Shown in pieces: positions 1-8,341 of a stretch of DNA of 38,713 nucleotides. The stretch is taken from NCBI GenBank assembly GCA_031409655.1, contig JANNXQ010000230.1, forward strand, positions 1-38,713. The letters run 5' to 3'. The position numbers and the translations under genes are program-made. This DNA is from Chthoniobacteraceae bacterium (GTDB lineage Bacteria > Verrucomicrobiota > Verrucomicrobiia > Chthoniobacterales > Chthoniobacteraceae). Positions within the stretch are counted from its first letter, which is position 1, and every line of letters begins with the position of its first letter. Below the pieces are notes generated by a model. That model was not told the origin of the DNA, ran no database searches, and worked only from the letters and a program-made list of their open reading frames with translations.

Positions 1-249
1 AGCAGCCAGCCGGTCCGCCTCGAGATCCTCGACCGAGTAATTCAACGGCACCTTGTGCTGCACCCGGAAATTCTCCGCCGACCAGTAGTCCCCGCCCACC
101 CCGGCCAGTTCACCCATCCGGCGCAGCGAGATTTTCCCCTCACGATAGAGATCGAGCGCCAGCGACTCGCGCGCCCGCCGCTCGCGCTCCTCGGTGGAAG
201 CGCCGAGCACCTCGGCAAATTCGTCCGGGAGCGAAATCGTGAGGCTCAT
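1..249 (-). CDS. UPF0175-family putative antitoxin (3' end runs off window)
   Basis: Not in the ORF track. Manual translation from ATG 249: MSLTISLPDEFAEVLGASTEERERRARESLALDLYREGKISLRRMGELAGV...HKVPLNYSVEDLEADRLAA. The 'ALxLYxxGxISL' and 'YSxEDLExD' motifs are typical of UPF0175, usually paired with DUF3368 PIN proteins. Confidence 0.8.
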   Translation of the reverse strand, partial: MSLTISLPDEFAEVLGASTEERERRARESLALDLYREGKISLRRMGELAGVGGDYWSAENFRVQHKVPLNYSVEDLEADRLAA

Positions 250-256
250 GGGCCGG

Positions 257-285
257 ATCCTAGCCAGTGCCGCGCTGGAGAGCAA
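257..285 (-). promoter_or_regulatory. Putative sigma70 promoter (leaderless type) for the UPF0175 gene
   Basis: TTGCTC-N17-TAGGAT, then 7 nt to ATG 249. Confidence 0.55.
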
Positions 286-397
286 GCCAGCCCCGTGGAT
301 CGAGCGGTCCGACGAGACCGAGTTGCGGGAGCAACTGCGTGGCTCCGATTTGATGGAGATGCAGCGGCGGCCCGGTATCGGCGACGAACAGCCTCAC
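260..397 (-). pseudogene. Truncated PIN-domain (DUF3368-like) toxin, N-terminal fragment only
   Basis: GTG at 397 overlaps the TGA of the RHH gene (GTGA). It translates MRLFVADTGPPLHLHQIGATQLLPQLG..., resembling the DUF3368/PIN start 'VxDTxPLxxLxxIGxxxLL', and ends after 45 aa. Confidence 0.65.
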
Positions 398-606
398 CGC
401 GGAGGCTGCGGTGGCTTGACCTCCGCGAGCGCCGCCGCGATGTCGTCCATCTGATGCCGCTCCTGCAAAGCAAACCGGCGATGGCTCAGATAATCCCGCA
501 AAGCCTCGCGGGCGACCTCCCCGGCATCCCGAAAGCCGCCATCCACCACCGCATCATCGAGCGCCGCGGCCAGCGGGTCGGGGAGTTCGAGAGCGAGCGT
601 TTTCAT
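394..606 (-). CDS. Ribbon-helix-helix (CopG/ParD-like) antitoxin, 70 aa
   Basis: MKTLALELPDPLAAALDDAVVDGGFRDAGEVAREALRDYL shows a beta-strand + two-helix RHH pattern. Start placed at ATG 606 rather than 714 because a promoter motif lies directly upstream. Confidence 0.75.
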   Translation of the reverse strand: MKTLALELPDPLAAALDDAVVDGGFRDAGEVAREALRDYLSHRRFALQERHQMDDIAAALAEVKPPQPPR

Positions 607-612
607 AGGGGC

Positions 613-642
613 AAAGTAGGCGCACCGCGACGGCTCCAGCAA
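613..642 (-). promoter_or_regulatory. Putative leaderless sigma70 promoter for the RHH gene
   Basis: TTGCTG-N18-TACTTT, then 6 nt to ATG 606. Confidence 0.5.
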
Positions 643-723
643 GCGGCAGCTCGAAGCGACCGGCTGGGGCATCGCTGCGCTGCGCTCCTCCTCGGGGAAG
701 AAATCGGTCTTCATCGTCGCAGC

Positions 724-758: not shown

Positions 759-977
759 ATGCTCGATTGGTCCACATGCAAATCTGTCGAACGCGTGCCC
801 GGGCGAGTCAGCGGCGCGTGGGTGTTCAAAGGCACGCGCCTGCCGGTGCGGTCGCTGTTTGAAAACATCGAGGCCGGCGCCACCGTGGATCAGTTCCTCG
901 CATGGTATGAAGGCGTCACTCGCGAGCAGGTGCTCGAAGTCCTGCGCCACGCCGAGCAGAGCCTCGCCGCCGCGTGA
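759..977 (+). CDS. DUF433-family antitoxin
   Basis: VERVPGRVSGAWVFKGTRLPVRSLFENIEAGATVDQFLAWYEGVTREQV matches the DUF433 pattern 'PxxxxGxPxxxGTRxPV...GxsxeEilxxYP.l'. Confidence 0.9.
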   Translation: MLDWSTCKSVERVPGRVSGAWVFKGTRLPVRSLFENIEAGATVDQFLAWYEGVTREQVLEVLRHAEQSLAAA

Positions 978-1294
978 TGCGGATCCTTTTCGACCAAGGC
1001 ACGCCCGTCCCGCTTCGGCGCTCGTTGCCCACGCACCACGTCGAGACCGCATGGCAGCGCGGATGGGCGGAACTCTCCAATGGCGATCTGCTTTCCGCCG
1101 CGGAGTCTGCCGGGTTTGACCTCCTGGTCACCACCGACCAAAACCTGCGCTACCAGCAAAATCTTTCCGCCCGCCAGATCGGCATCCTCGTTCTCACCGT
1201 CGCCAACTGGCCAACCCTCGAACCGCACGCCGCGGACATCGCCGTCACGGTCGATGCCATGCAGCCGGGTGCCTTCCGTGAGTGGTCCCCGTAA
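977..1294 (+). CDS. DUF5615 / VapC45-like PIN-domain toxin
   Basis: MRILFDQGTP...GWAELSNGDLLSAAESAGFDLLVTTDQNLRYQQNL; TGATG translational coupling to DUF433. Confidence 0.85.
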   Translation: MRILFDQGTPVPLRRSLPTHHVETAWQRGWAELSNGDLLSAAESAGFDLLVTTDQNLRYQQNLSARQIGILVLTVANWPTLEPHAADIAVTVDAMQPGAFREWSP

Positions 1295-1403: not shown

Positions 1404-2627
1404 TCAGGCAGGCGGAGCAGCGCGTTGTTTCGGCAGCTCATAAGAGGGGTCTTTGCGAAAATCACGCAGTTCGTCGCGAAGACACAAATGATCCCGGGTC
1501 GGTAGCTCCTTCAGAAGGTAGAGCACGTAATCGATTGCGAGTTTCTTTCCCTTCGGTTGAATCCTCTCGTTGACCCAAACGGTCCCGTCCAAAACTCCGC
1601 CCGGATTCTTCCATTCCAAGTTTTCCAGCGCCCACTTGAAGACGGGCAATTTGTCTTTGCTGAGAAAGTGAACATAGAGCCGGGCCAGCAATTCAAGGCC
1701 GATAGGGCGGAAAACGAGATTCCGATTCCCTTTTCGTTCCTTAGCAGGCGTCGTCTTGTGTTCGATGAAGTAACGATGCAAAGCAGGTTCGTGGACGATG
1801 ATGAAATCGAAGAACTCGGAAACGATCTTTTGAAAGCTGCTCACGTTCTCTGGGGCGGTTTCGGCACTCCCAGGCGGGCGCTTGAACAACCGCTTCAGCT
1901 TTTGGCAAACCGTGAAGATCGTAAGCAGGCTCGTGAAGTAGTCCTTCCCGCCTTTCGCCACGAATTCGATCTTTTCTGTCACCGCGATTTCGCTGCCTTT
2001 TTTGAAGCGAGGATATTCCGCGAACAGCCGCCGCGTGACGATGGCGCACAGATCGTCTTCATCAATAATGACCCTGTCGCCTTTTGAGACCGGCACAGCG
2101 TTTTTGTTGATGTCACAAAACAAGCGTCGAGTGCGCACTTTTCCCGGCGCAGTTTCGAGATGTGCGAGAAAAATCACCGGATACTGGTCGGTCTTAAGGC
2201 GGTCGCCGAAATCACTCTTACCTCTTCGAATTCCCTCCACGCGATGCTGCCCATCGATCGCAAATATCTTCTCCGAACCCGAGAAGGTCAGCAAGCCCAT
2301 GGAAGCCTTCGCAACGGACACATCGTCAAGGCCGAGCTTTTCCGCAACCGTGGACAAGTCGAACTCCGTCCAGTTAGGGGCAGCGTCGAATACTCCCAAC
2401 AGAATCGCGTTGAAGAAGCGTGACTCGCGAGCCTTGAGATACTTCACGATCTTCTCAACGCGAGGTTTGAGGTCGCGTTGGAGATAGTCATCCAGAGCTT
2501 TCGCTTCCCGGATGTCCTTCGATTTCATCACATAGTTGGCGATTTGCTCAGCGGACATCAGTGATGGGTAAAACACCCAATCGCCGAGAACGCCTCGAAG
2601 GGCTGCCGTGTGCCAAGGGGTCTTCAT
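1404..2627 (-). CDS. DGQHR-domain protein (DndB-like)
   Basis: YLQRDL, RFFNAILLGV, FAIDGQHRVEGI and RRLFCDINKNAVPV are DGQHR/DndB family motifs. Codon usage is less GC-biased than the backbone. Confidence 0.85.
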   Translation of the reverse strand: MKTPWHTAALRGVLGDWVFYPSLMSAEQIANYVMKSKDIREAKALDDYLQRDLKPRVEKIVKYLKARESRFFNAILLGVFDAAPNWTEFDLSTVAEKLGLDDVSVAKASMGLLTFSGSEKIFAIDGQHRVEGIRRGKSDFGDRLKTDQYPVIFLAHLETAPGKVRTRRLFCDINKNAVPVSKGDRVIIDEDDLCAIVTRRLFAEYPRFKKGSEIAVTEKIEFVAKGGKDYFTSLLTIFTVCQKLKRLFKRPPGSAETAPENVSSFQKIVSEFFDFIIVHEPALHRYFIEHKTTPAKERKGNRNLVFRPIGLELLARLYVHFLSKDKLPVFKWALENLEWKNPGGVLDGTVWVNERIQPKGKKLAIDYVLYLLKELPTRDHLCLRDELRDFRKDPSYELPKQRAAPPA

Positions 2628-3241
2628 ATCAGTCCAAACGCTTTCTGCTGTGTTTTGATGTCCACCGGCCAGTCTCGCCGGTCGTAACGGGGATAGATGA
2701 AGCCGTGAAGTGTTTCTTCCAGAGCTTCCAAATCAGCGCTTGAACGGTTGATGAGACTGTAAGCTACTCGCAAGACTCCGTAGTAGCGGCGGATCATGCT
2801 GTCGATTTGAGTTCGCTTCGCGAGGCCTGAGATTCTGCCCGGGAGATAATCTTTAAGGCGTTCGCGAAGGGGTCTGCTGCTCCCAGATTCATTGGAGATG
2901 CCGACATAGAGCGCGAAAGTCGGAAACCCGCTGAGCAACATCTCTGGCCGAATGTAAAAAATGTAGAGGCCCGGGTCTTTGCTTTTAATCACCCTGTCGA
3001 GAACTGCTGGCGTGCTGATGTCTGCGTACCGAAATTCCTCCCACTTGAGATCGAAAGCCCATTGCGGTGGCTGGTGTCGCTGCCAGAGAACGGGATCTGT
3101 GCAGAACTCCTCGCGATAGCTTTTGAAGCGCACTGCGTCGGGATACGACTGCCATGCGGTGAAGGCGTCAGGGATGTGAGCATCCAAGATATCGAGCGTC
3201 GCCGCGGGAATACTTGTGATTGGCCCCGTTCCGTTGCTCAT
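2624..3241 (-). CDS. GIY-YIG nuclease-family protein (about 205 aa)
   Basis: PGLYIF...LYVGIS...LRERLKDY...LEALEETL fits the GIY-YIG motif with conserved Arg and Glu. Likely start ATG 3241 (MSNGTG); ATGA overlap with the DGQHR gene. Confidence 0.7.
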   Translation of the reverse strand: MSNGTGPITSIPAATLDILDAHIPDAFTAWQSYPDAVRFKSYREEFCTDPVLWQRHQPPQWAFDLKWEEFRYADISTPAVLDRVIKSKDPGLYIFYIRPEMLLSGFPTFALYVGISNESGSSRPLRERLKDYLPGRISGLAKRTQIDSMIRRYYGVLRVAYSLINRSSADLEALEETLHGFIYPRYDRRDWPVDIKTQQKAFGLI

Positions 3242-3246
3242 TGGGT

Positions 3247-3495
3247 TTACTGATTCGCTTCCATGAAAATGCGCCGCACGTCGCGGTAGTGACTCGCGAA
3301 CGTCTCGCGATCCGCTTCGAGAATCGCCCACGCTTCATGTGCTTCGCGCTGCAACTCTGCCGCGCTCTGCCAGTCCAGCGTGCTGTGGAAAATGTGGTTG
3401 CGCATGATGTCTTCGACCATTTCCGCGTCCTCGCTTGAGCAACGTAGTTCGGCGATGATTTGTTTCTTATATGGGCCGATAAATGGCTCGGGCAT
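3247..3495 (-). CDS. Small hypothetical protein, 82 aa
   Basis: 3' part of track ORF 3247..3987, from ATG 3495: MPEPFIGPYKKQIIAELRCSSEDAEMVEDIMRNHIFHSTLDWQSAAELQREAHEAW... It fills the gap between neighbours with 11-bp and 5-bp spacers. Confidence 0.6.
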   Translation of the reverse strand: MPEPFIGPYKKQIIAELRCSSEDAEMVEDIMRNHIFHSTLDWQSAAELQREAHEAWAILEADRETFASHYRDVRRIFMEANQ

Positions 3496-3506: not shown

Positions 3507-5054
3507 TCAGCTTCCCGGCTCCCAGCAGCGGATGCGCTCCGGGGTGTGGCCGGGAAGTTTTACGAAGGCGACGCCGGGTGGGAGGTAGGTGTCGCTGAAT
3601 TCGCTGGCTTGGAGCTTGCGGCCGAAGACGCCTTGCAGGGCGCCGAGGCCTTTCTGCGTCTGGGCGCAAGCGAAGGCGATCACGGCGCCGAGCTGCGTGG
3701 TGAAGTCGTCGGTCTGGCCCTCGAAGTCGCTCGGGTCTTGCGAGAGGAGCATGACCACGGAGCCTTTCGAGCGGCCCTGGCGCACGAGATCGACCAGCGA
3801 TTCGGAGCGGCGTTCCTTGAGCACCTTGCGCGCTTCGTCGAGCACGAGGAGATGGCGGAAGACGCGGAAGCCGCCCGTCACCGGGGTGTCGGCCTGATCG
3901 AGCAGGTAGGCGCTCACGGCATCGAGCAGCACGAGCGTGACGAGCCGCTTCAACTCCTCGGGCAGCCCCTTGAGGCTCACGATCCACGACTGGCTGAAGA
4001 ATTGCGCCGGCTGGAACTTCGCCTCGAAGCAGCTCAGGTGGGTCAGCTCGTTGAGCCGGCTGACAATACTGTCGTTCTCCTTCCCGGCGGCGCGGAGATC
4101 CTGCTCGTAGGCGTCGCGCACCGTTTCGAGGTTACGGTCGCCGCCGTCGGTGATCACGCGTTCGATGGCCGTGCGGAGGAGGTCCTTTTGCAAATCGCCG
4201 GGTGACTTGCAGCAGAGCACCAGCGTGTCGCGCAGGCGCATCGCTGCCCGGGCGATCTTGTTCTGCCCGGATTCGCGTCGCGGGAGAAAATCGAGCGGCA
4301 CAGGATCGGTGCCCGCTTCCACGGCGCCGACGTTGGGAAGCCCTGCGAAAGATCCGGTCGGACGCCCATCGGCGACGAATTCGCCCTTCGGATCGATGAA
4401 GAGAAACGGAATCTGCGCCTGCCGCGCGAGTTCGAGCGCGATCTGCACGCCTGTCGTCGTCTTGCCCCGACCGATCGCGCCCATGAGCGCGAGGTGCGGC
4501 GGGACACCGGGGCCATTGATGACGAAGTCGATCGGCTTGTCGCCGGGATGCGTGCGGCTGACGGAGCCAACCTTGAGTCGAATCTCCCCGGCCACGCCAC
4601 TGGTGGGCAGGAATGGTATGTCGATGGGCGAACCCGCTCCGGGCAGCCACTCCGCGAGCCGCTGCACGAGCTTGAGTTCATTGCCGCCACAGCGTTCCAG
4701 TTCCTCGCGGACGAGCATAAACCCACGAGCCCAGTGCGCCTCGGTGTGCGCGCGGAATTCTTCGACGGACGACTCCAGGGTCAGCTTGCCATCAAGGATG
4801 AGGGCGCTGAGCCATAGGTCATCGTCGCTGCCAAAGAGGTTTTCCCCGGGGATCGCCCGCGGATGATACTTCTTACCGGGCGGCAGCGGATCGGGCTGAG
4901 AGGGCTCGGCCAGCGAACGCCCAATGAGCAGACGCGCCGCTTCATAACGATACTGGAGGCCGTAAACGGTCCGCACTTTCTCCTCAAAGGCCGCAGACTC
5001 CTCCGTCGCCTTGAACTGCGCCTTCCACACCTGCTCCTTGAATTCGAGGTTCAT
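3507..5054 (-). CDS. DndE-like domain fused to a HerA/FtsK-superfamily ATPase
   Basis: N-terminal ~135 aa are DndE-like (ARLLIGRSLAE...GENLFG...AHWARG). C-terminus has PHLALMGAIGRGKTT (Walker A), FIDPKGEF, LLVLDEA (Walker B) and RQGRSKG...LLSQ (arginine finger region). It starts 3 nt after the dndD remnant. Confidence 0.75.
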   Translation of the reverse strand: MNLEFKEQVWKAQFKATEESAAFEEKVRTVYGLQYRYEAARLLIGRSLAEPSQPDPLPPGKKYHPRAIPGENLFGSDDDLWLSALILDGKLTLESSVEEFRAHTEAHWARGFMLVREELERCGGNELKLVQRLAEWLPGAGSPIDIPFLPTSGVAGEIRLKVGSVSRTHPGDKPIDFVINGPGVPPHLALMGAIGRGKTTTGVQIALELARQAQIPFLFIDPKGEFVADGRPTGSFAGLPNVGAVEAGTDPVPLDFLPRRESGQNKIARAAMRLRDTLVLCCKSPGDLQKDLLRTAIERVITDGGDRNLETVRDAYEQDLRAAGKENDSIVSRLNELTHLSCFEAKFQPAQFFSQSWIVSLKGLPEELKRLVTLVLLDAVSAYLLDQADTPVTGGFRVFRHLLVLDEARKVLKERRSESLVDLVRQGRSKGSVVMLLSQDPSDFEGQTDDFTTQLGAVIAFACAQTQKGLGALQGVFGRKLQASEFSDTYLPPGVAFVKLPGHTPERIRCWEPGS

Positions 5055-5057
5055 AAA

Positions 5058-5324
5058 TCAGCGGCCGAAGTATGCGTCCGCCTGCACCGACGATCCTTTG
5101 GCCGCGCCTTCAAAGGTCACGAGAAACGTCTGCAAGGTCGCGCTCCGGATCGTCTCGGCGAGCCGCGGGGTGACTTCTTCGTCGTGGGTGAGAATGATGA
5201 CCTGATCGAGGTCGAAATTCTTCAGGGCGTCCAAGGTGCGCGGCCGATACTCCGAGTCGGCATTGCCGAGCGGGGTGTCGATGACCAGTGGGATGCGGGG
5301 GCGCGTGATCTCCGCGAGGGCCAG
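5058..5324 (-). pseudogene. dndD: dndD C-terminal remnant (88 codons)
   Basis: Not in the ORF track. Translation: LALAEITRPRIPLVIDTPLGNADSEYRPRTLDALKNFDLDQVIILTHDEEV...AYFGR*, matching the DndD end (IDTPLG, QVIIL..DEE, terminal YF). An in-frame TAG lies immediately upstream (5325-5327); Walker A, coiled coil and signature motif are absent. Confidence 0.8.
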
Positions 5325-5365: not shown

Positions 5366-6292
5366 CTAAGGCCCGCATTCCCAATCGCATTCCAAACACT
5401 CGTATCCAGCGAAAAGCTTCGTTGACTCTTCGGCTAGGTACCAGAAGTCGTGCAGGTAGAATTCGCCACAGAAATTCCCGCACCGTTGGCAGGTGTTCGC
5501 AAGGTATCGCTCCTTAACTACGTTGCTAAAACGTTCGCGCAAGATTGCACCATGCTGTCGCGCCACCGAGACGGCATGGGCGTTGAACTCGCCCGGCCCG
5601 GCCATTCCCCCTTCACCATACCCGAAAGCGATTTTCATCGCGGCTCGGCACTTCCAACACTCGCCATCGACAACGTGGATTTCGACGTCGAACAGCGGAG
5701 CTTTGCATTTGGGACACTTACTCCGCGTGCAAACACTGCCTACCTTCGCATCGAGTTTGGTGAGCGGTCGCAGTGTGTCGAGGCTGCTGTCGTCAGTGAT
5801 GTGATACTCAAGCATTCCGATTTTCTCCTGCGTGCAGAAATCGCGAACATGATCTTCCGGCGCGTGTGAAACCACCACCCCAATGATCGCAACGGGTCGC
5901 GCGTGTTCATCAAACAACGTCAGGTCGGGCCGACAGGTAGTGAACGAATGCTCAAGGCAGACGCTACGCGCCTTTTTCAAAAGATTGCCGCGGTGCCCGC
6001 TTCCGCATCGTGAGCACTCCCACGACACGGTGACCTCGCGTTGCTCTGCAATGGCGTGTTCAATCTCTTCGCAAAGGAGAATTTTCGCGGTCCGATGAAG
6101 CGCGGTTTCAGGGTTGCAGCTCACGTCAGGCCGATGAGCGAAATGGTGCCGCATCTTCATGCCTTTGCGCGCAATGAGCGGTGACAAACATGCCGGGCAG
6201 GCTCCGCCGTGCCCACTGCCGCTCGCTACTTCGGAAATGTGGACCAAACGGCCATCGCGAAGGGCGAAAGGAATCTTGAGCGTGGTTTTCAC
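5366..6292 (-). CDS. CoiA-like Zn-finger / PD-(D/E)XK nuclease-family protein
   Basis: FAL..GRLVHI..V...CPAC..PLIARKG...RHHFAH, ETALHRTAK and RPDLTL...AIIGVVVSH, plus several C-terminal CxxC pairs. Confidence 0.7.
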   Translation of the reverse strand: MKTTLKIPFALRDGRLVHISEVASGSGHGGACPACLSPLIARKGMKMRHHFAHRPDVSCNPETALHRTAKILLCEEIEHAIAEQREVTVSWECSRCGSGHRGNLLKKARSVCLEHSFTTCRPDLTLFDEHARPVAIIGVVVSHAPEDHVRDFCTQEKIGMLEYHITDDSSLDTLRPLTKLDAKVGSVCTRSKCPKCKAPLFDVEIHVVDGECWKCRAAMKIAFGYGEGGMAGPGEFNAHAVSVARQHGAILRERFSNVVKERYLANTCQRCGNFCGEFYLHDFWYLAEESTKLFAGYECLECDWECGP

Positions 6293-6298
6293 CGCAAG

Positions 6299-7222
6299 CT
6301 AGGCGCGAATGCCGGAACGGCTTCGATGCAGTCGGAGAGCTTCGCCAGAAGGCCGCAGTTTCGCTGCCGGATCGAATTGCAGGTGGCGTCCAGAGAAGCC
6401 GCTTAAGCGAAATGCTTCAGGTCCATGCTCTGTAAAAGCGCGAATGTTCACGATGATGCGGAGGTCTGAATCGGCGGACCAAAGCCCAGCGTCGAACATC
6501 CAGTGCGCGTTCTTCGAGAGGGCGAGGCCGTTAGTCGGGTCGTCATTCTGTGTGTCCGCCCATCCTTCAATGTGTGCGGCATCGACGATGGTGGAGCCGT
6601 CGCCAGTGACGCATCGGTAGCCAGTAAGCGCGCACGTATAGCGGTAGTCGGAGCACACGCGAACGGCAAAGCGGGCACTTCGACCTCTGCGCTTCGCTGC
6701 CTTCTCAGCTTCCTCCATCACCTGCCCAGTTGACGCTGAACTCCCATCACCGCCTTGAATGCCGAGACTCTCAAACAAAGCGACGCGCTCGACAGGATCG
6801 AAGTATTTCGTGATCACCACTACGCGCGCCTTTAAGCGGAAACCGGGATCGGAAAGCAGAGCGAACAACTCGGGATGCATCTCGCAAACAGTACAGGTGT
6901 CCGGCGAGCCCGCTGGCCGCATCTCCGCATCGAACGCCTCCCAAAATCCCTGCGTGTTCAGATGAAAGAAAGGCAGCCTCAGATCAAGGCGAGTAGGCCA
7001 GCGGTTGGTCACGAGTGCCCCGTAGCTGCGGAACCTGAGTACGAGTCCTGGACTGCGAGCGAAGGTGGAAGCCGGAAACTCGCCAGCCTCCACCATGTCC
7101 AATAGGCAGAGCAGTAGTAGTGGCTTGTGCGGAGCTTTCCCGCGGCATTCTCCGCGACCGTTCGCGGGATTCAGGCTCACGAGTTTTCCCAACCAACGTT
7201 TCGACTGCTCTTGCGCGCTCAC
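6299..7222 (-). CDS. SBD-HNH endonuclease (phosphorothioate-DNA-binding, type IV restriction-like)
   Basis: N-terminal KAPHKPLLLL...LPFFHL...GFW resembles the sulfur-binding domain of ScoMcrA-type proteins. C-terminal FAVRV...YRYTCALTG...VDAAHI...DDPTNGLALSKNAHWMFDAG is an HNH_2 domain. Confidence 0.8.
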   Translation of the reverse strand: MSAQEQSKRWLGKLVSLNPANGRGECRGKAPHKPLLLLCLLDMVEAGEFPASTFARSPGLVLRFRSYGALVTNRWPTRLDLRLPFFHLNTQGFWEAFDAEMRPAGSPDTCTVCEMHPELFALLSDPGFRLKARVVVITKYFDPVERVALFESLGIQGGDGSSASTGQVMEEAEKAAKRRGRSARFAVRVCSDYRYTCALTGYRCVTGDGSTIVDAAHIEGWADTQNDDPTNGLALSKNAHWMFDAGLWSADSDLRIIVNIRAFTEHGPEAFRLSGFSGRHLQFDPAAKLRPSGEALRLHRSRSGIRA

Positions 7223-7225
7223 CGC

Positions 7226-8341
7226 CTAAACTCCAGCAAGGGTGAACTGCGGAATCTTTCTCACGATCTCGGCAGTTCGATCCTGTGCCCATTGGTCGCG
7301 GATCAATCGCACTTCATGATCCGAAATCAGCGGCATCCCTGTCTCCTCGCGGATGGCCAGCAATTCCTCGAGCAGCATCCGGCGGGCTTCGTAGGTGAGC
7401 GGGCCGAGGCCGGGCTGGCCATTGCGGCGGACTTTGCTGCGGTAGTCGGGCGTGTCGGAGACGGTCTTCAGGCGCTTGCGGAAGTCGGCCAGCGGGATGA
7501 GTTCCTCGTGGCCGATGGTGATGAGCGATTCGAGGGAGTTGTCCTTTTCCACCACAGTACAAGTCCAGCAGCCGAAGCGCGCGGAATTGCTGCCGCAGGA
7601 GGGCGCATCGTCGTTGCTCACGACGAAGGGGCATTCGCCGCCGAGGGCGTTCTTATAGAGCGTGATGACGTCGTCGTAACGTCCACCCCACGGCGGACGG
7701 GCGCTGATGAGGGTGAGCCAGACTTCCTGAGTCGTGAGTTCCTGAATCGGGGAGAAGATCCAGACTCCCTGGTGGTCAGAGTGCTTGGTCAGCCGGCCTT
7801 CGGCGCTGCGCGCATGGCGGGTGATGCTGCCGGACCGGGTGGCAGATTCGTCGCGGCGGACGCCGAGCAGCAGGACCGCGCCGCCCCCGTGGCTGACCTG
7901 TTCGCGGATGAAGCGCGAGGTGGGGCGGATTTTCATCCGGTCCGTACACCAGCGGAAGGTGCGGTTCGGTGCCGGGTACCCGCGACCGAGCAAATTCACC
8001 CAGAAGGATTCTTCGGGTAGCGGATGCGTGCGGACGACGGTGACGGGGACATTGAGCGCGCCGATGTTTTCCTCGATGCGTGCGAGCATCTTCCCGACGA
8101 AACCGTGGAAGACGGGCGACTCGACGAGAGTGTCGTTGCAGACGAGATGGACGGGCCGGGTGCGCTGGTCCGGCGCGATGGCGAGCAGGGTTTCGACGAC
8201 GAGATGGGTGAGGAGCGTGGAGTCCTTGCCGCCGGAAAAGCCGATGCTCCACGGACGCCCGCCATCTTCCTCCAGATATTGCGCGCGAATTTCCCGGCGG
8301 ATGGAGCGGAGTTTGTCGGGCAGTTGATCCAGATCGAGCAC
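7226..8341 (-). CDS. dndC: DNA phosphorothioation sulfurtransferase DndC (PAPS-reductase fold)
   Basis: PWSIGFSGGKDST, FWVNLLGRGYPAPNRTFRWCTDRMKIRP, LLGVRRDES..R and ARFGCWTCTVV are DndC hallmark motifs. Confidence 0.93.
   Translation of the reverse strand: MLDLDQLPDKLRSIRREIRAQYLEEDGGRPWSIGFSGGKDSTLLTHLVVETLLAIAPDQRTRPVHLVCNDTLVESPVFHGFVGKMLARIEENIGALNVPVTVVRTHPLPEESFWVNLLGRGYPAPNRTFRWCTDRMKIRPTSRFIREQVSHGGGAVLLLGVRRDESATRSGSITRHARSAEGRLTKHSDHQGVWIFSPIQELTTQEVWLTLISARPPWGGRYDDVITLYKNALGGECPFVVSNDDAPSCGSNSARFGCWTCTVVEKDNSLESLITIGHEELIPLADFRKRLKTVSDTPDYRSKVRRNGQPGLGPLTYEARRMLLEELLAIREETGMPLISDHEVRLIRDQWAQDRTAEIVRKIPQFTLAGV

What the first reader, a model, noticed from the sequence alone, without database searches (positions are those of the whole stretch)
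3507..5054. DndE-like domain fused to a HerA/FtsK-type motor ATPase
Seen: the gene in the dndE position is 515 aa, with a DndE-like N-terminus (~135 aa) and a complete P-loop ATPase (GAIGRGKTT, LLVLDEA, RQGRSKG). Known: canonical DndE is a small stand-alone nicked-DNA-binding protein, and related ATPase domains occur in the restriction subunit DndH. Inference: a non-canonical dnd subtype that couples the modification complex to a translocase, possibly driving the downstream GIY-YIG nuclease in place of DndFGH, which is absent from this window.
Basis: partly seen in the sequence, partly recalled or inferred. Interest (0 to 1): 0.7.

Follow-up and report, generated by a model that had tools for sequence, protein, structure and literature searches.

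The report
Known DndEi gene in hijacked operon
The fused protein is a known type (DndEi, a helicase-bearing subunit of the machinery that writes sulfur marks on DNA), but here its operon has lost an essential partner gene, and a nuclease of the kind that cuts sulfur-marked DNA sits in the gap, a swap that recurs in related bacteria.

Summary
The fusion is real: residues 7-128 fold like DndE (Z 12.6 and 11.2) and residues 156-515 form a HerA/FtsK ATPase closest to the DndH C-terminal domain. It is not new. It is the DndEi architecture, described in Riemerella as a helicase needed for phosphorothioate (PT) modification (review passage) and catalogued by Rakesh 2024. It is therefore most likely a writer subunit, not a replacement for DndFGH; only 12 of 34 intact loci have a GIY-YIG-like gene downstream.

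dndD survives only as an 88-codon 3' stub. An SBD-HNH nuclease, the class that cuts PT-DNA, and a CoiA-like gene fill the gap behind dndC. Of 57 loci with the whole interval visible, 0 of 44 intact and 9 of 13 broken ones carry SBD-HNH there, needing at least 5 independent changes on the trees. In the genome's family, 11 of 14 genomes with this dndC have it. Verdict: a known protein in a locus that has probably switched from writing PT marks to cutting them. The recurrent swap is the more interesting part.

The parts
7226..8341 (-). dndC core (371 aa PP-loop sulfurtransferase). In this subtype DndC is split: its C-terminal part is a separate 67-aa ORF, missing here
   Evidence: TIGR03183 320 bits > cut-off 290; the 67-aa ORF of intact loci matches TIGR03183 positions 398-445 weakly (E 0.003-0.008) and is not found in this genome
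6299..7222 (-). SBD-HNH nuclease (307 aa), PT-dependent type IV restriction endonuclease type; starts 3 nt after the dndC stop, where the small ORF starts in intact loci
   Evidence: PF13391; NF045808 E 1.6e-20 but below cut-off; hit to SBDHga 8h0l E 1.8e-4; H32/K33/L83/P84/H87 align to the cavity residues H25/K26/L75/P76/H79
5366..6292 (-). CoiA_N-containing Cys-rich protein (308 aa), cargo of the replacing segment
   Evidence: PF25164 E 2.7e-9; also follows the SBD-HNH in G022 and precedes the same dndD stub in L029
5058..5324 (-). dndD 3' stub: 88 codons behind an in-frame TAG, without the N-terminal Walker A half or the coiled coil
   Evidence: translation; TIGR03185 positions 566-650 of 650, the only match in the genome; 74% to residues 604-699 of an intact DndD
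3507..5054 (-). DndEi: DndE domain (aa ~7-128), flexible linker (138-151), HerA/FtsK ATPase (156-515)
3247..3495 (-). 82-aa ORF, found behind dndEi in several relatives; no family assigned
2624..3241 (-). GIY-YIG-like nuclease (205 aa from the ATG at 3241); accessory, usually paired with the DGQHR gene
   Evidence: no Pfam hit for the window protein; 6 of 13 aligned homologs hit GIY_YIG_2, best E 1.7e-5
1404..2627 (-). DGQHR/DndB-like ParB-superfamily protein (407 aa)
   Evidence: PF14072 E 4.8e-20; TIGR03187 above cut-off

Best explanation
The 515-aa protein is a DndEi. In intact relatives the operon dndC + DndC-tail ORF + dndD + dndEi, with a cysteine desulfurase often nearby, writes phosphorothioate marks. 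The DndE domain binds DNA with DndD, and the fused HerA/FtsK motor moves along or unwinds DNA for sulfur incorporation. Shown here: architecture, fold, motifs and gene order. Taken from the characterised Riemerella protein via a review: the helicase is needed for modification. In this genome the writer is dead. A segment carrying an SBD-HNH nuclease and a CoiA-like gene has replaced the DndC-tail ORF and all but 88 codons of dndD (shown). The nuclease start takes over the slot behind the dndC stop, so it probably uses the operon's promoter and translational coupling (inferred). It most likely cuts incoming PT-modified DNA, which is safe only because the host no longer writes PT at this locus (inferred). 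The intact dndEi is a leftover of a recent break; older broken loci lose it piecemeal.
For: Architecture and fold. HerA/FtsK sensor Q and arginine finger as defined by Rakesh 2024 are conserved. The window family aligns over 429 columns, both domains, to Bacteroidota 'DndE family' proteins (hhalign 99.9%, E 4.9e-31); that clade includes Chryseobacterium, Flavobacterium and Prevotellaceae entries. DndEi function: PMC6435447 passage. Broken state. Contigs of two public runs cross the nuclease/CoiA/dndD-stub/dndEi junctions with 0 differences (records 2, 9, 10; one study, possibly the source). Pattern: SBD-HNH in 0 of 44 intact vs 9 of 13 broken loci; 6 changes on the DndC tree (5 forced) and 9 on the DndEi tree (6 forced); nuclease and DndC trees disagree. 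In the family, 11 of 14 genomes with this dndC type have SBD-HNH directly behind it, and no full-length dndD of this subtype was found in 151 genomes. 8 of 13 broken loci also lost part of dndEi. dndC shrinks to in-frame mini-leaders in G544 and G041 and ends on a TGA overlapping the nuclease ATG in G053. SBD nucleases restrict dnd-carrying plasmids (PMC6224610 passages), and a mutated dnd cluster was one predicted explanation for co-location (PMC7461809 passages).
Against: The Riemerella DndEi sequence was never compared directly and the primary paper could not be read, so the functional transfer rests on architecture and a 21%-identity profile link. Exclusion is not genome-wide: 2 of 16 genomes chosen for intact-looking loci hold a full SBD-HNH elsewhere (G582; G593, whose dnd genes are frameshifted). 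G041 holds a second, canonical-looking dndC/dndD pair besides its SBD-HNH, and G265 has distant SBD-HNH-like genes upstream of a dndC. The nuclease scores below the NF045808 cut-off and its PT-dependence is untested. The window's dndC and dndEi show low dN/dS and no decay, which fits a recent break but also continued selection. Loci are partly redundant, many genomes are fragmented MAGs, and 4 of the 44 'intact' loci carry frameshifts (L020, L022, L099, L100).
Confidence: 0.75

Rival explanations
1. One reading: the fused motor is a restriction translocase that drives the downstream GIY-YIG nuclease and replaces DndFGH.
For: The ATPase is closest to the DndH C-domain; HerA motors pair with nucleases in HerA-NurA and TdpAB (fold neighbours); no DndH apart from the fusion itself in this genome or in 16 others.
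Against: A GIY-YIG-like gene lies within 1.5 kb in only 12 of 34 intact loci. It travels with the DGQHR gene, sometimes on the opposite strand (L097), and stays when dndEi is truncated (L026). The characterised DndEi helicase is required for modification. Rakesh 2024 treats such nucleases as back-up effectors at the edges of the systems.
Confidence: 0.08
2. The window locus is a functional remodelled system: DndC (with a housekeeping cysteine desulfurase) still marks DNA without DndD, DndEi still serves it, and SBD-HNH reads self marks and spares or is regulated by them.
For: dndC, SBD-HNH and dndEi are all open with low dN/dS; dndC-HNH is the commonest arrangement in the family (11 of 14); IscS-like genes exist elsewhere in the genome; Rakesh 2024 proposes SBD-bearing HNH enzymes as cognate restriction partners.
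Against: What follows the nuclease is not constant: dndD remnants start at residue 62, 282, 547 or 604, or are absent, and dndEi is often cut. dndC itself is deleted, truncated or frameshifted in G544, G041, G053, G006 and L064 while the nuclease gene stays in place. The DndC-tail ORF is absent in 9 of 9 HNH loci.
Confidence: 0.1
3. No writer/cutter conflict: the slot behind dndC is simply a defence-cassette hotspot, and SBD-HNH is one of many cargos that happen to delete dndD.
For: Other cargos also replace dndD without an SBD-HNH (L012, L027, L113; plain deletion in L043); SBD-HNH co-exists with dnd genes elsewhere in G582, G593 and G041; it also occurs with no dnd remnant nearby (7 loci, L157-L159 and L161-L164).
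Against: When present, SBD-HNH is the first gene behind dndC (behind the DndC-tail-like ORF in G529), several unrelated nuclease lineages occupy that slot, and none sits in an intact operon (0 of 44). L012's DndC is sister to an HNH-bearing one, so it may be a secondary loss.
Confidence: 0.2

Closest known systems
DndEi of Riemerella anatipestifer (Zheng et al. 2016, PMID 26631733; seen only through passages of PMC6435447 and PMC7464106)
   Same: DndE domain plus an extra helicase/ATPase domain in one polypeptide, in a dnd modification cluster. The window family is colinear with Bacteroidota DndE-family proteins of 516-531 aa.
   Different: A divergent Verrucomicrobiota/Planctomycetota clade (21% identity to that Bacteroidota set); DndC is split; target motif unknown; the window copy has lost dndD.
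DndE-fused clade-3 HerA/FtsK ATPases next to a DndD-related ABC ATPase (Rakesh, Aravind, Krishnan 2024, PMC10853773, section 22)
   Same: Exactly this fusion and gene linkage; the ATPase is related to DndH (best PDB match 7es4).
   Different: The sections I read (16, 17, 21, 22, 24 and passages) do not describe SBD-HNH replacing dndD; they treat a three-domain wHTH+SAD+HNH as a cognate restriction partner. The supplement could not be read.
Two-domain SBD-HNH PT-dependent restriction endonucleases (SprMcrA, EcoWI; SBD of Hga; NF045808)
   Same: SBD with the five sulfur-cavity residues of SBDHga, followed by an HNH domain; about 300 aa.
   Different: Below the NF045808 cut-off. It sits inside a dnd operon, which Lutz 2020 found for under 3.6% of homologs, and repeatedly in one fixed slot.
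DndFGH and IscS-DndBCDE-DndI restriction modules
   Same: DndH shares the HerA/FtsK domain.
   Different: No DndF/G/H match in the genome beyond the fusion's own ATPase. DndI (PMC11662687, abstract only) is a separate PT-sensing ATPase/nickase and was not compared.

Membership tests
DndEi / DndE-HerA fusion | N-terminal DndE domain | tested here: met
   Structural match to 7x4e Z 12.6 and 5wtu Z 11.2; PF08870 in 31 of 39 and 52 of 75 homologs; no direct Pfam hit for the window protein
DndEi / DndE-HerA fusion | C-terminal HerA/FtsK ATPase with Walker A/B, arginine finger and sensor Q | tested here: met
   PF01935 above cut-off; 7es4 Z 35.8; motifs conserved in 38-39 of 39
DndEi / DndE-HerA fusion | Encoded directly behind dndD in a dndC-dndD cluster | tested here: met
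   44 of 57 loci complete; in the window the position is kept but dndD is a stub
DndEi / DndE-HerA fusion | Sequence relationship to the characterised Riemerella protein | tested here: inconclusive
   Full-length profile match to Bacteroidota DndE-family proteins; no Riemerella-named sequence among the rows listed
DndEi / DndE-HerA fusion | Helicase and DNA-stimulated ATPase activity needed for PT modification | not testable with these tools
   Needs biochemistry
Functional Dnd PT modification system (this window) | Full-length DndD ABC ATPase | tested here: not met
   88-codon stub is the only match in a 94.9%-complete genome
Functional Dnd PT modification system (this window) | DndC and a cysteine desulfurase | tested here: inconclusive
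   DndC core present, its C-terminal ORF not found; desulfurases elsewhere in the genome
DndFGH restriction module | dndF, dndG and full-length dndH | tested here: inconclusive
   The DndH profile hits only the fusion; TIGR03236/7/8 found nothing but also rang in no control genome
SBD-HNH PT-dependent endonuclease (6299-7222) | Sulfur-binding cavity residues | tested here: met
   H32, K33, L83, P84, H87 align to SBDHga H25, K26, L75, P76, H79
SBD-HNH PT-dependent endonuclease (6299-7222) | HNH domain | tested here: met
   PF13391 37.9 bits > 21; motifs intact
SBD-HNH PT-dependent endonuclease (6299-7222) | NF045808 curated cut-off (180 bits) | tested here: not met
   73 bits; relatives 105 and 115 bits
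SBD-HNH PT-dependent endonuclease (6299-7222) | Cleavage that depends on PT | not testable with these tools
   Needs biochemistry

The most novel reading that the evidence does not exclude
SBD-HNH cassettes spread among DndEi-type writer operons by replacement recombination, with dndC as the left arm and dndD or dndEi as the right arm. One step disables the sulfur writer and installs a sulfur cutter under the writer's promoter. Because the incoming nuclease attacks PT-marked chromosomes, replacement would be the favoured outcome, making this a homing-like, epigenetically targeted conversion that has nearly removed intact operons of this subtype from the genome's family. Supporting hints: a fixed left junction with variable right junctions; nuclease and DndC trees that disagree; and the same CoiA/dndD junction codon in the window and L029 on stubs that are only 78% identical, with L029's stub 93% identical to another lineage.
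Probability: 0.2. Interest if true: 0.7.

Novelty: new member of a known kind. Interest (0 to 1): 0.33.

Why it matters
The fusion itself only extends DndEi to Verrucomicrobiota and Planctomycetota, where the DndE domain is too divergent for Pfam to call. The locus state matters more. It gives a concrete, repeated answer to why PT-binding HNH nucleases turn up inside dnd clusters: here they replace the writer rather than partner it, which fits one of Lutz 2020's explanations and cuts against reading every such nuclease as the cognate restriction arm. It also warns that annotation from dndC + dndE + nuclease alone will call dead writers 'new PT defence systems'. Matched intact and converted loci make the writer/cutter conflict directly testable in a laboratory strain.

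Tried and rejected
A single-sequence fold of residues 1-140 had pLDDT 49 and was not used. Foldseek on the full model listed only ATPase matches; the DndE match needed the VIA-align wide search. The PADLOC mad8 hit (E 7e-19, aa 185-450) covers only the ATPase; no other MADS profile hit the 9 window proteins scanned, and a paper search returned three papers with MADS and mad8 but without DndE (listing only), so I did not pursue it. An assembly chimera was rejected as far as contigs allow. No RNA holder was listed. The promoter/terminator scan gave nothing above shuffles. dN/dS and lineage-unique changes could not separate a recent break from continued selection on dndEi. TIGR03236/7/8 searches had no positive control. 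A phylum sample of 401 genomes held only one other dndC of this subtype (G295, intact operon, no SBD-HNH at E<=1e-25), too few to test exclusion. The primary DndEi paper was not held and the Rakesh supplement could not be read; either may bear on the novelty of the swap. Searches for a printed account of SBD-HNH replacing dndD showed none, judged from listings plus passages of PMC7461809, PMC6224610 and PMC10602919. No complex prediction was sent.

Full report
Observation. Pfam calls only HerA-type domains on it. The DndE domain shows through homologs: 31 of 39 close ones match PF08870 at E<=0.1, and 52 of 75 near-full-length distant ones, chosen from the 150 listed, pass its cut-off. The AlphaFold model built on the 39-sequence alignment (pLDDT 84) matches solved DndE structures over residues 7-128 (7x4e Z 12.6; 5wtu Z 11.2) and the DndH C-domain over 156-515 (7es4 Z 35.8), with a disordered linker at 138-151. 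The Walker motifs, arginine finger and sensor glutamine that Rakesh 2024 uses to define HerA/FtsK are conserved in 38-39 of 39 sequences.

What the protein is. This architecture is in print. [quoted passage not shown] PMC7464106 (passage) reports it in Prevotella and Bacteroides. Rakesh 2024 (PMC10853773; sections 16, 17, 21, 22, 24 and passages read) lists HerA/FtsK domains fused to DndE next to a DndD-related ATPase. I could not read the primary paper or obtain the named Riemerella sequence. The window family does align over both domains (429 columns, 21% identity, E 4.9e-31) to a large Bacteroidota 'DndE family' clade (985 proteins at E<=1e-50 among 7999 scored). Named close relatives are Verrucomicrobiota and Planctomycetota.

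The normal operon. I classed 108 stretches: 104 loci, three regions, and the window. In 57 the whole dndC-to-dndEi interval is visible; 51 were set aside (40 at contig edges, 9 unclear, 2 without dndC in view). Of the 57, 44 read dndC, a 67-aa ORF, full dndD, dndEi. Four of these 44 carry frameshifts and several are near-duplicates. The small ORF corresponds weakly to the C-terminus of canonical DndC. A cysteine desulfurase lies within the fetched DNA in 25 of 44. A GIY-YIG-like gene follows within 1.5 kb in only 12 of the 34 intact loci with at least 2.5 kb of flank, and a DGQHR gene within 6 kb in 14 of 34. The DndH profile finds only the fusion's own ATPase in the window genome and in 14 of 16 genomes chosen for intact-looking loci, and nothing in the other 2. 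DndFGH does seem absent, but the constant unit is the writer, and the nuclease is optional.

The window's operon is broken. Between dndC and dndEi lie an SBD-HNH gene, a CoiA-like gene and 88 codons of dndD behind an in-frame stop. That stub is the only DndD match in a 94.9%-complete genome, and the small ORF is not found. Contigs from two public runs of one study, possibly the source, cross the nuclease/CoiA/stub/dndEi junctions without a difference. The nuclease keeps all five sulfur-cavity residues of SBDHga but scores below the NF045808 cut-off.

The swap recurs. SBD-HNH sits behind dndC in 9 of 13 broken loci and 0 of 44 intact ones. The label needs 6 changes on a DndC tree of 49 rows (5 forced by strong branches) and 9 on a DndEi tree of 56 rows (6 forced). 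In 151 genomes of the window's family, 14 have this dndC type (60% identity or more, fragments included) and 11 of them have the nuclease directly behind it. None of the 151 showed a full-length dndD of this subtype, though two have pieces cut by contig ends. Of 15 genomes with a DndEi match, 3 are full length. The left junction is fixed: the nuclease starts where the small ORF would. The right junction varies, with dndD remnants starting at residue 62, 282, 547 or 604 or absent, and 8 of 13 broken loci also losing part of dndEi. At least two well-supported nuclease clades and four further distant sequences fill the slot, and one well-supported DndC clade carries both nuclease clades.

How it most likely works. 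In intact relatives DndEi is a writer subunit whose motor moves along or opens DNA for sulfur incorporation (transferred from the characterised protein; about 0.85). In the window the writer is dead and the locus expresses a nuclease against PT-marked DNA (inferred; about 0.75 overall). SBD nucleases are known to restrict dnd-carrying plasmids (PMC6224610 passages), and Lutz 2020 named mutated dnd clusters as one explanation for the rare co-location (passages).

Results against this reading. A full SBD-HNH occurs elsewhere in 2 of 16 genomes chosen for intact-looking loci. G041 has a second, canonical-looking dndC/dndD pair. G265 has distant SBD-HNH-like genes upstream of a dndC. Four broken loci have other cargo or none. 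The window's dndC, dndEi and even the dndD stub show no clear decay, so continued selection cannot be excluded, although the equally undecayed stub points to a recent break. Kin are not independent, so the Fisher P of 8e-8 overstates the case; the tree counts are the fairer measure.

Novelty. The fusion is a new member of a known kind. I found no printed account of SBD-HNH genes repeatedly replacing dndD, but the Rakesh supplement and the primary DndEi paper were not available. Unchecked notes of this scan report similar cases in other genomes; they are leads, not support. Interest 0.33: low for the fusion, moderate for the recurrent writer-to-cutter switch.

Noticed in passing
window 5058-5324 (-): 88-codon dndD stub missed by ORF calling; it starts at the same codon as the stub in L029, which also follows a CoiA-like gene, although the two stubs are only 78% identical.
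   Followed up: yes
L006:4247-4450 and all 44 intact loci: Conserved 67-aa ORF between dndC and dndD that looks like the split-off C-terminal part of DndC.
   Followed up: partly
window 1404-3241 (-); L003, L007, L023, L049, L056, L082, L099 and others: A divergent GIY-YIG gene and a DGQHR gene form a recurring two-gene module behind dndEi, inverted in L097; in other loci a membrane-protein-like gene replaces the GIY-YIG gene before a different DGQHR (L002, L019, L104).
   Followed up: partly
window 3247-3495 (-): 82-aa ORF of no known family, conserved behind dndEi in several relatives (45-70% identity).
   Followed up: partly
L012:2576-5326, L113:4560-6226 (reversed), L026:1544-2723, L114:8288-10081, L075:1737-3197, L027:5567-7825: Other defence-like cargos in the same interval: C5 methyltransferase with Vsr-like and Mrr-like genes (read from the translations), a TcmP pair (TIGR04474), and others unassigned.
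   Followed up: partly
L166 (Methylorubrum extorquens AM1 megaplasmid NC_012811.1, 1009307-1026827): A dndC-dndD-dndEi cluster (31% to the window DndEi) in a cultured laboratory alphaproteobacterium; a convenient strain in which to test this subtype.
   Followed up: partly
L156 (G529:C243): An SBD-HNH 73% identical to the window's follows a distant dndC (45%) and its small ORF, with only a dndEi fragment downstream: the same swap in another dnd subtype.
   Followed up: partly
window 1-285 (-), 394-714 (-), 974-1294 (+): Small UPF0175, ribbon-helix-helix and DUF5615-like genes, resembling toxin-antitoxin parts, at the island's edge; GC falls to 53-59% over the accessory genes against about 67% outside.
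   Followed up: no
P0140 (704 aa): A DndEi homolog with about 200 extra N-terminal residues.
   Followed up: no
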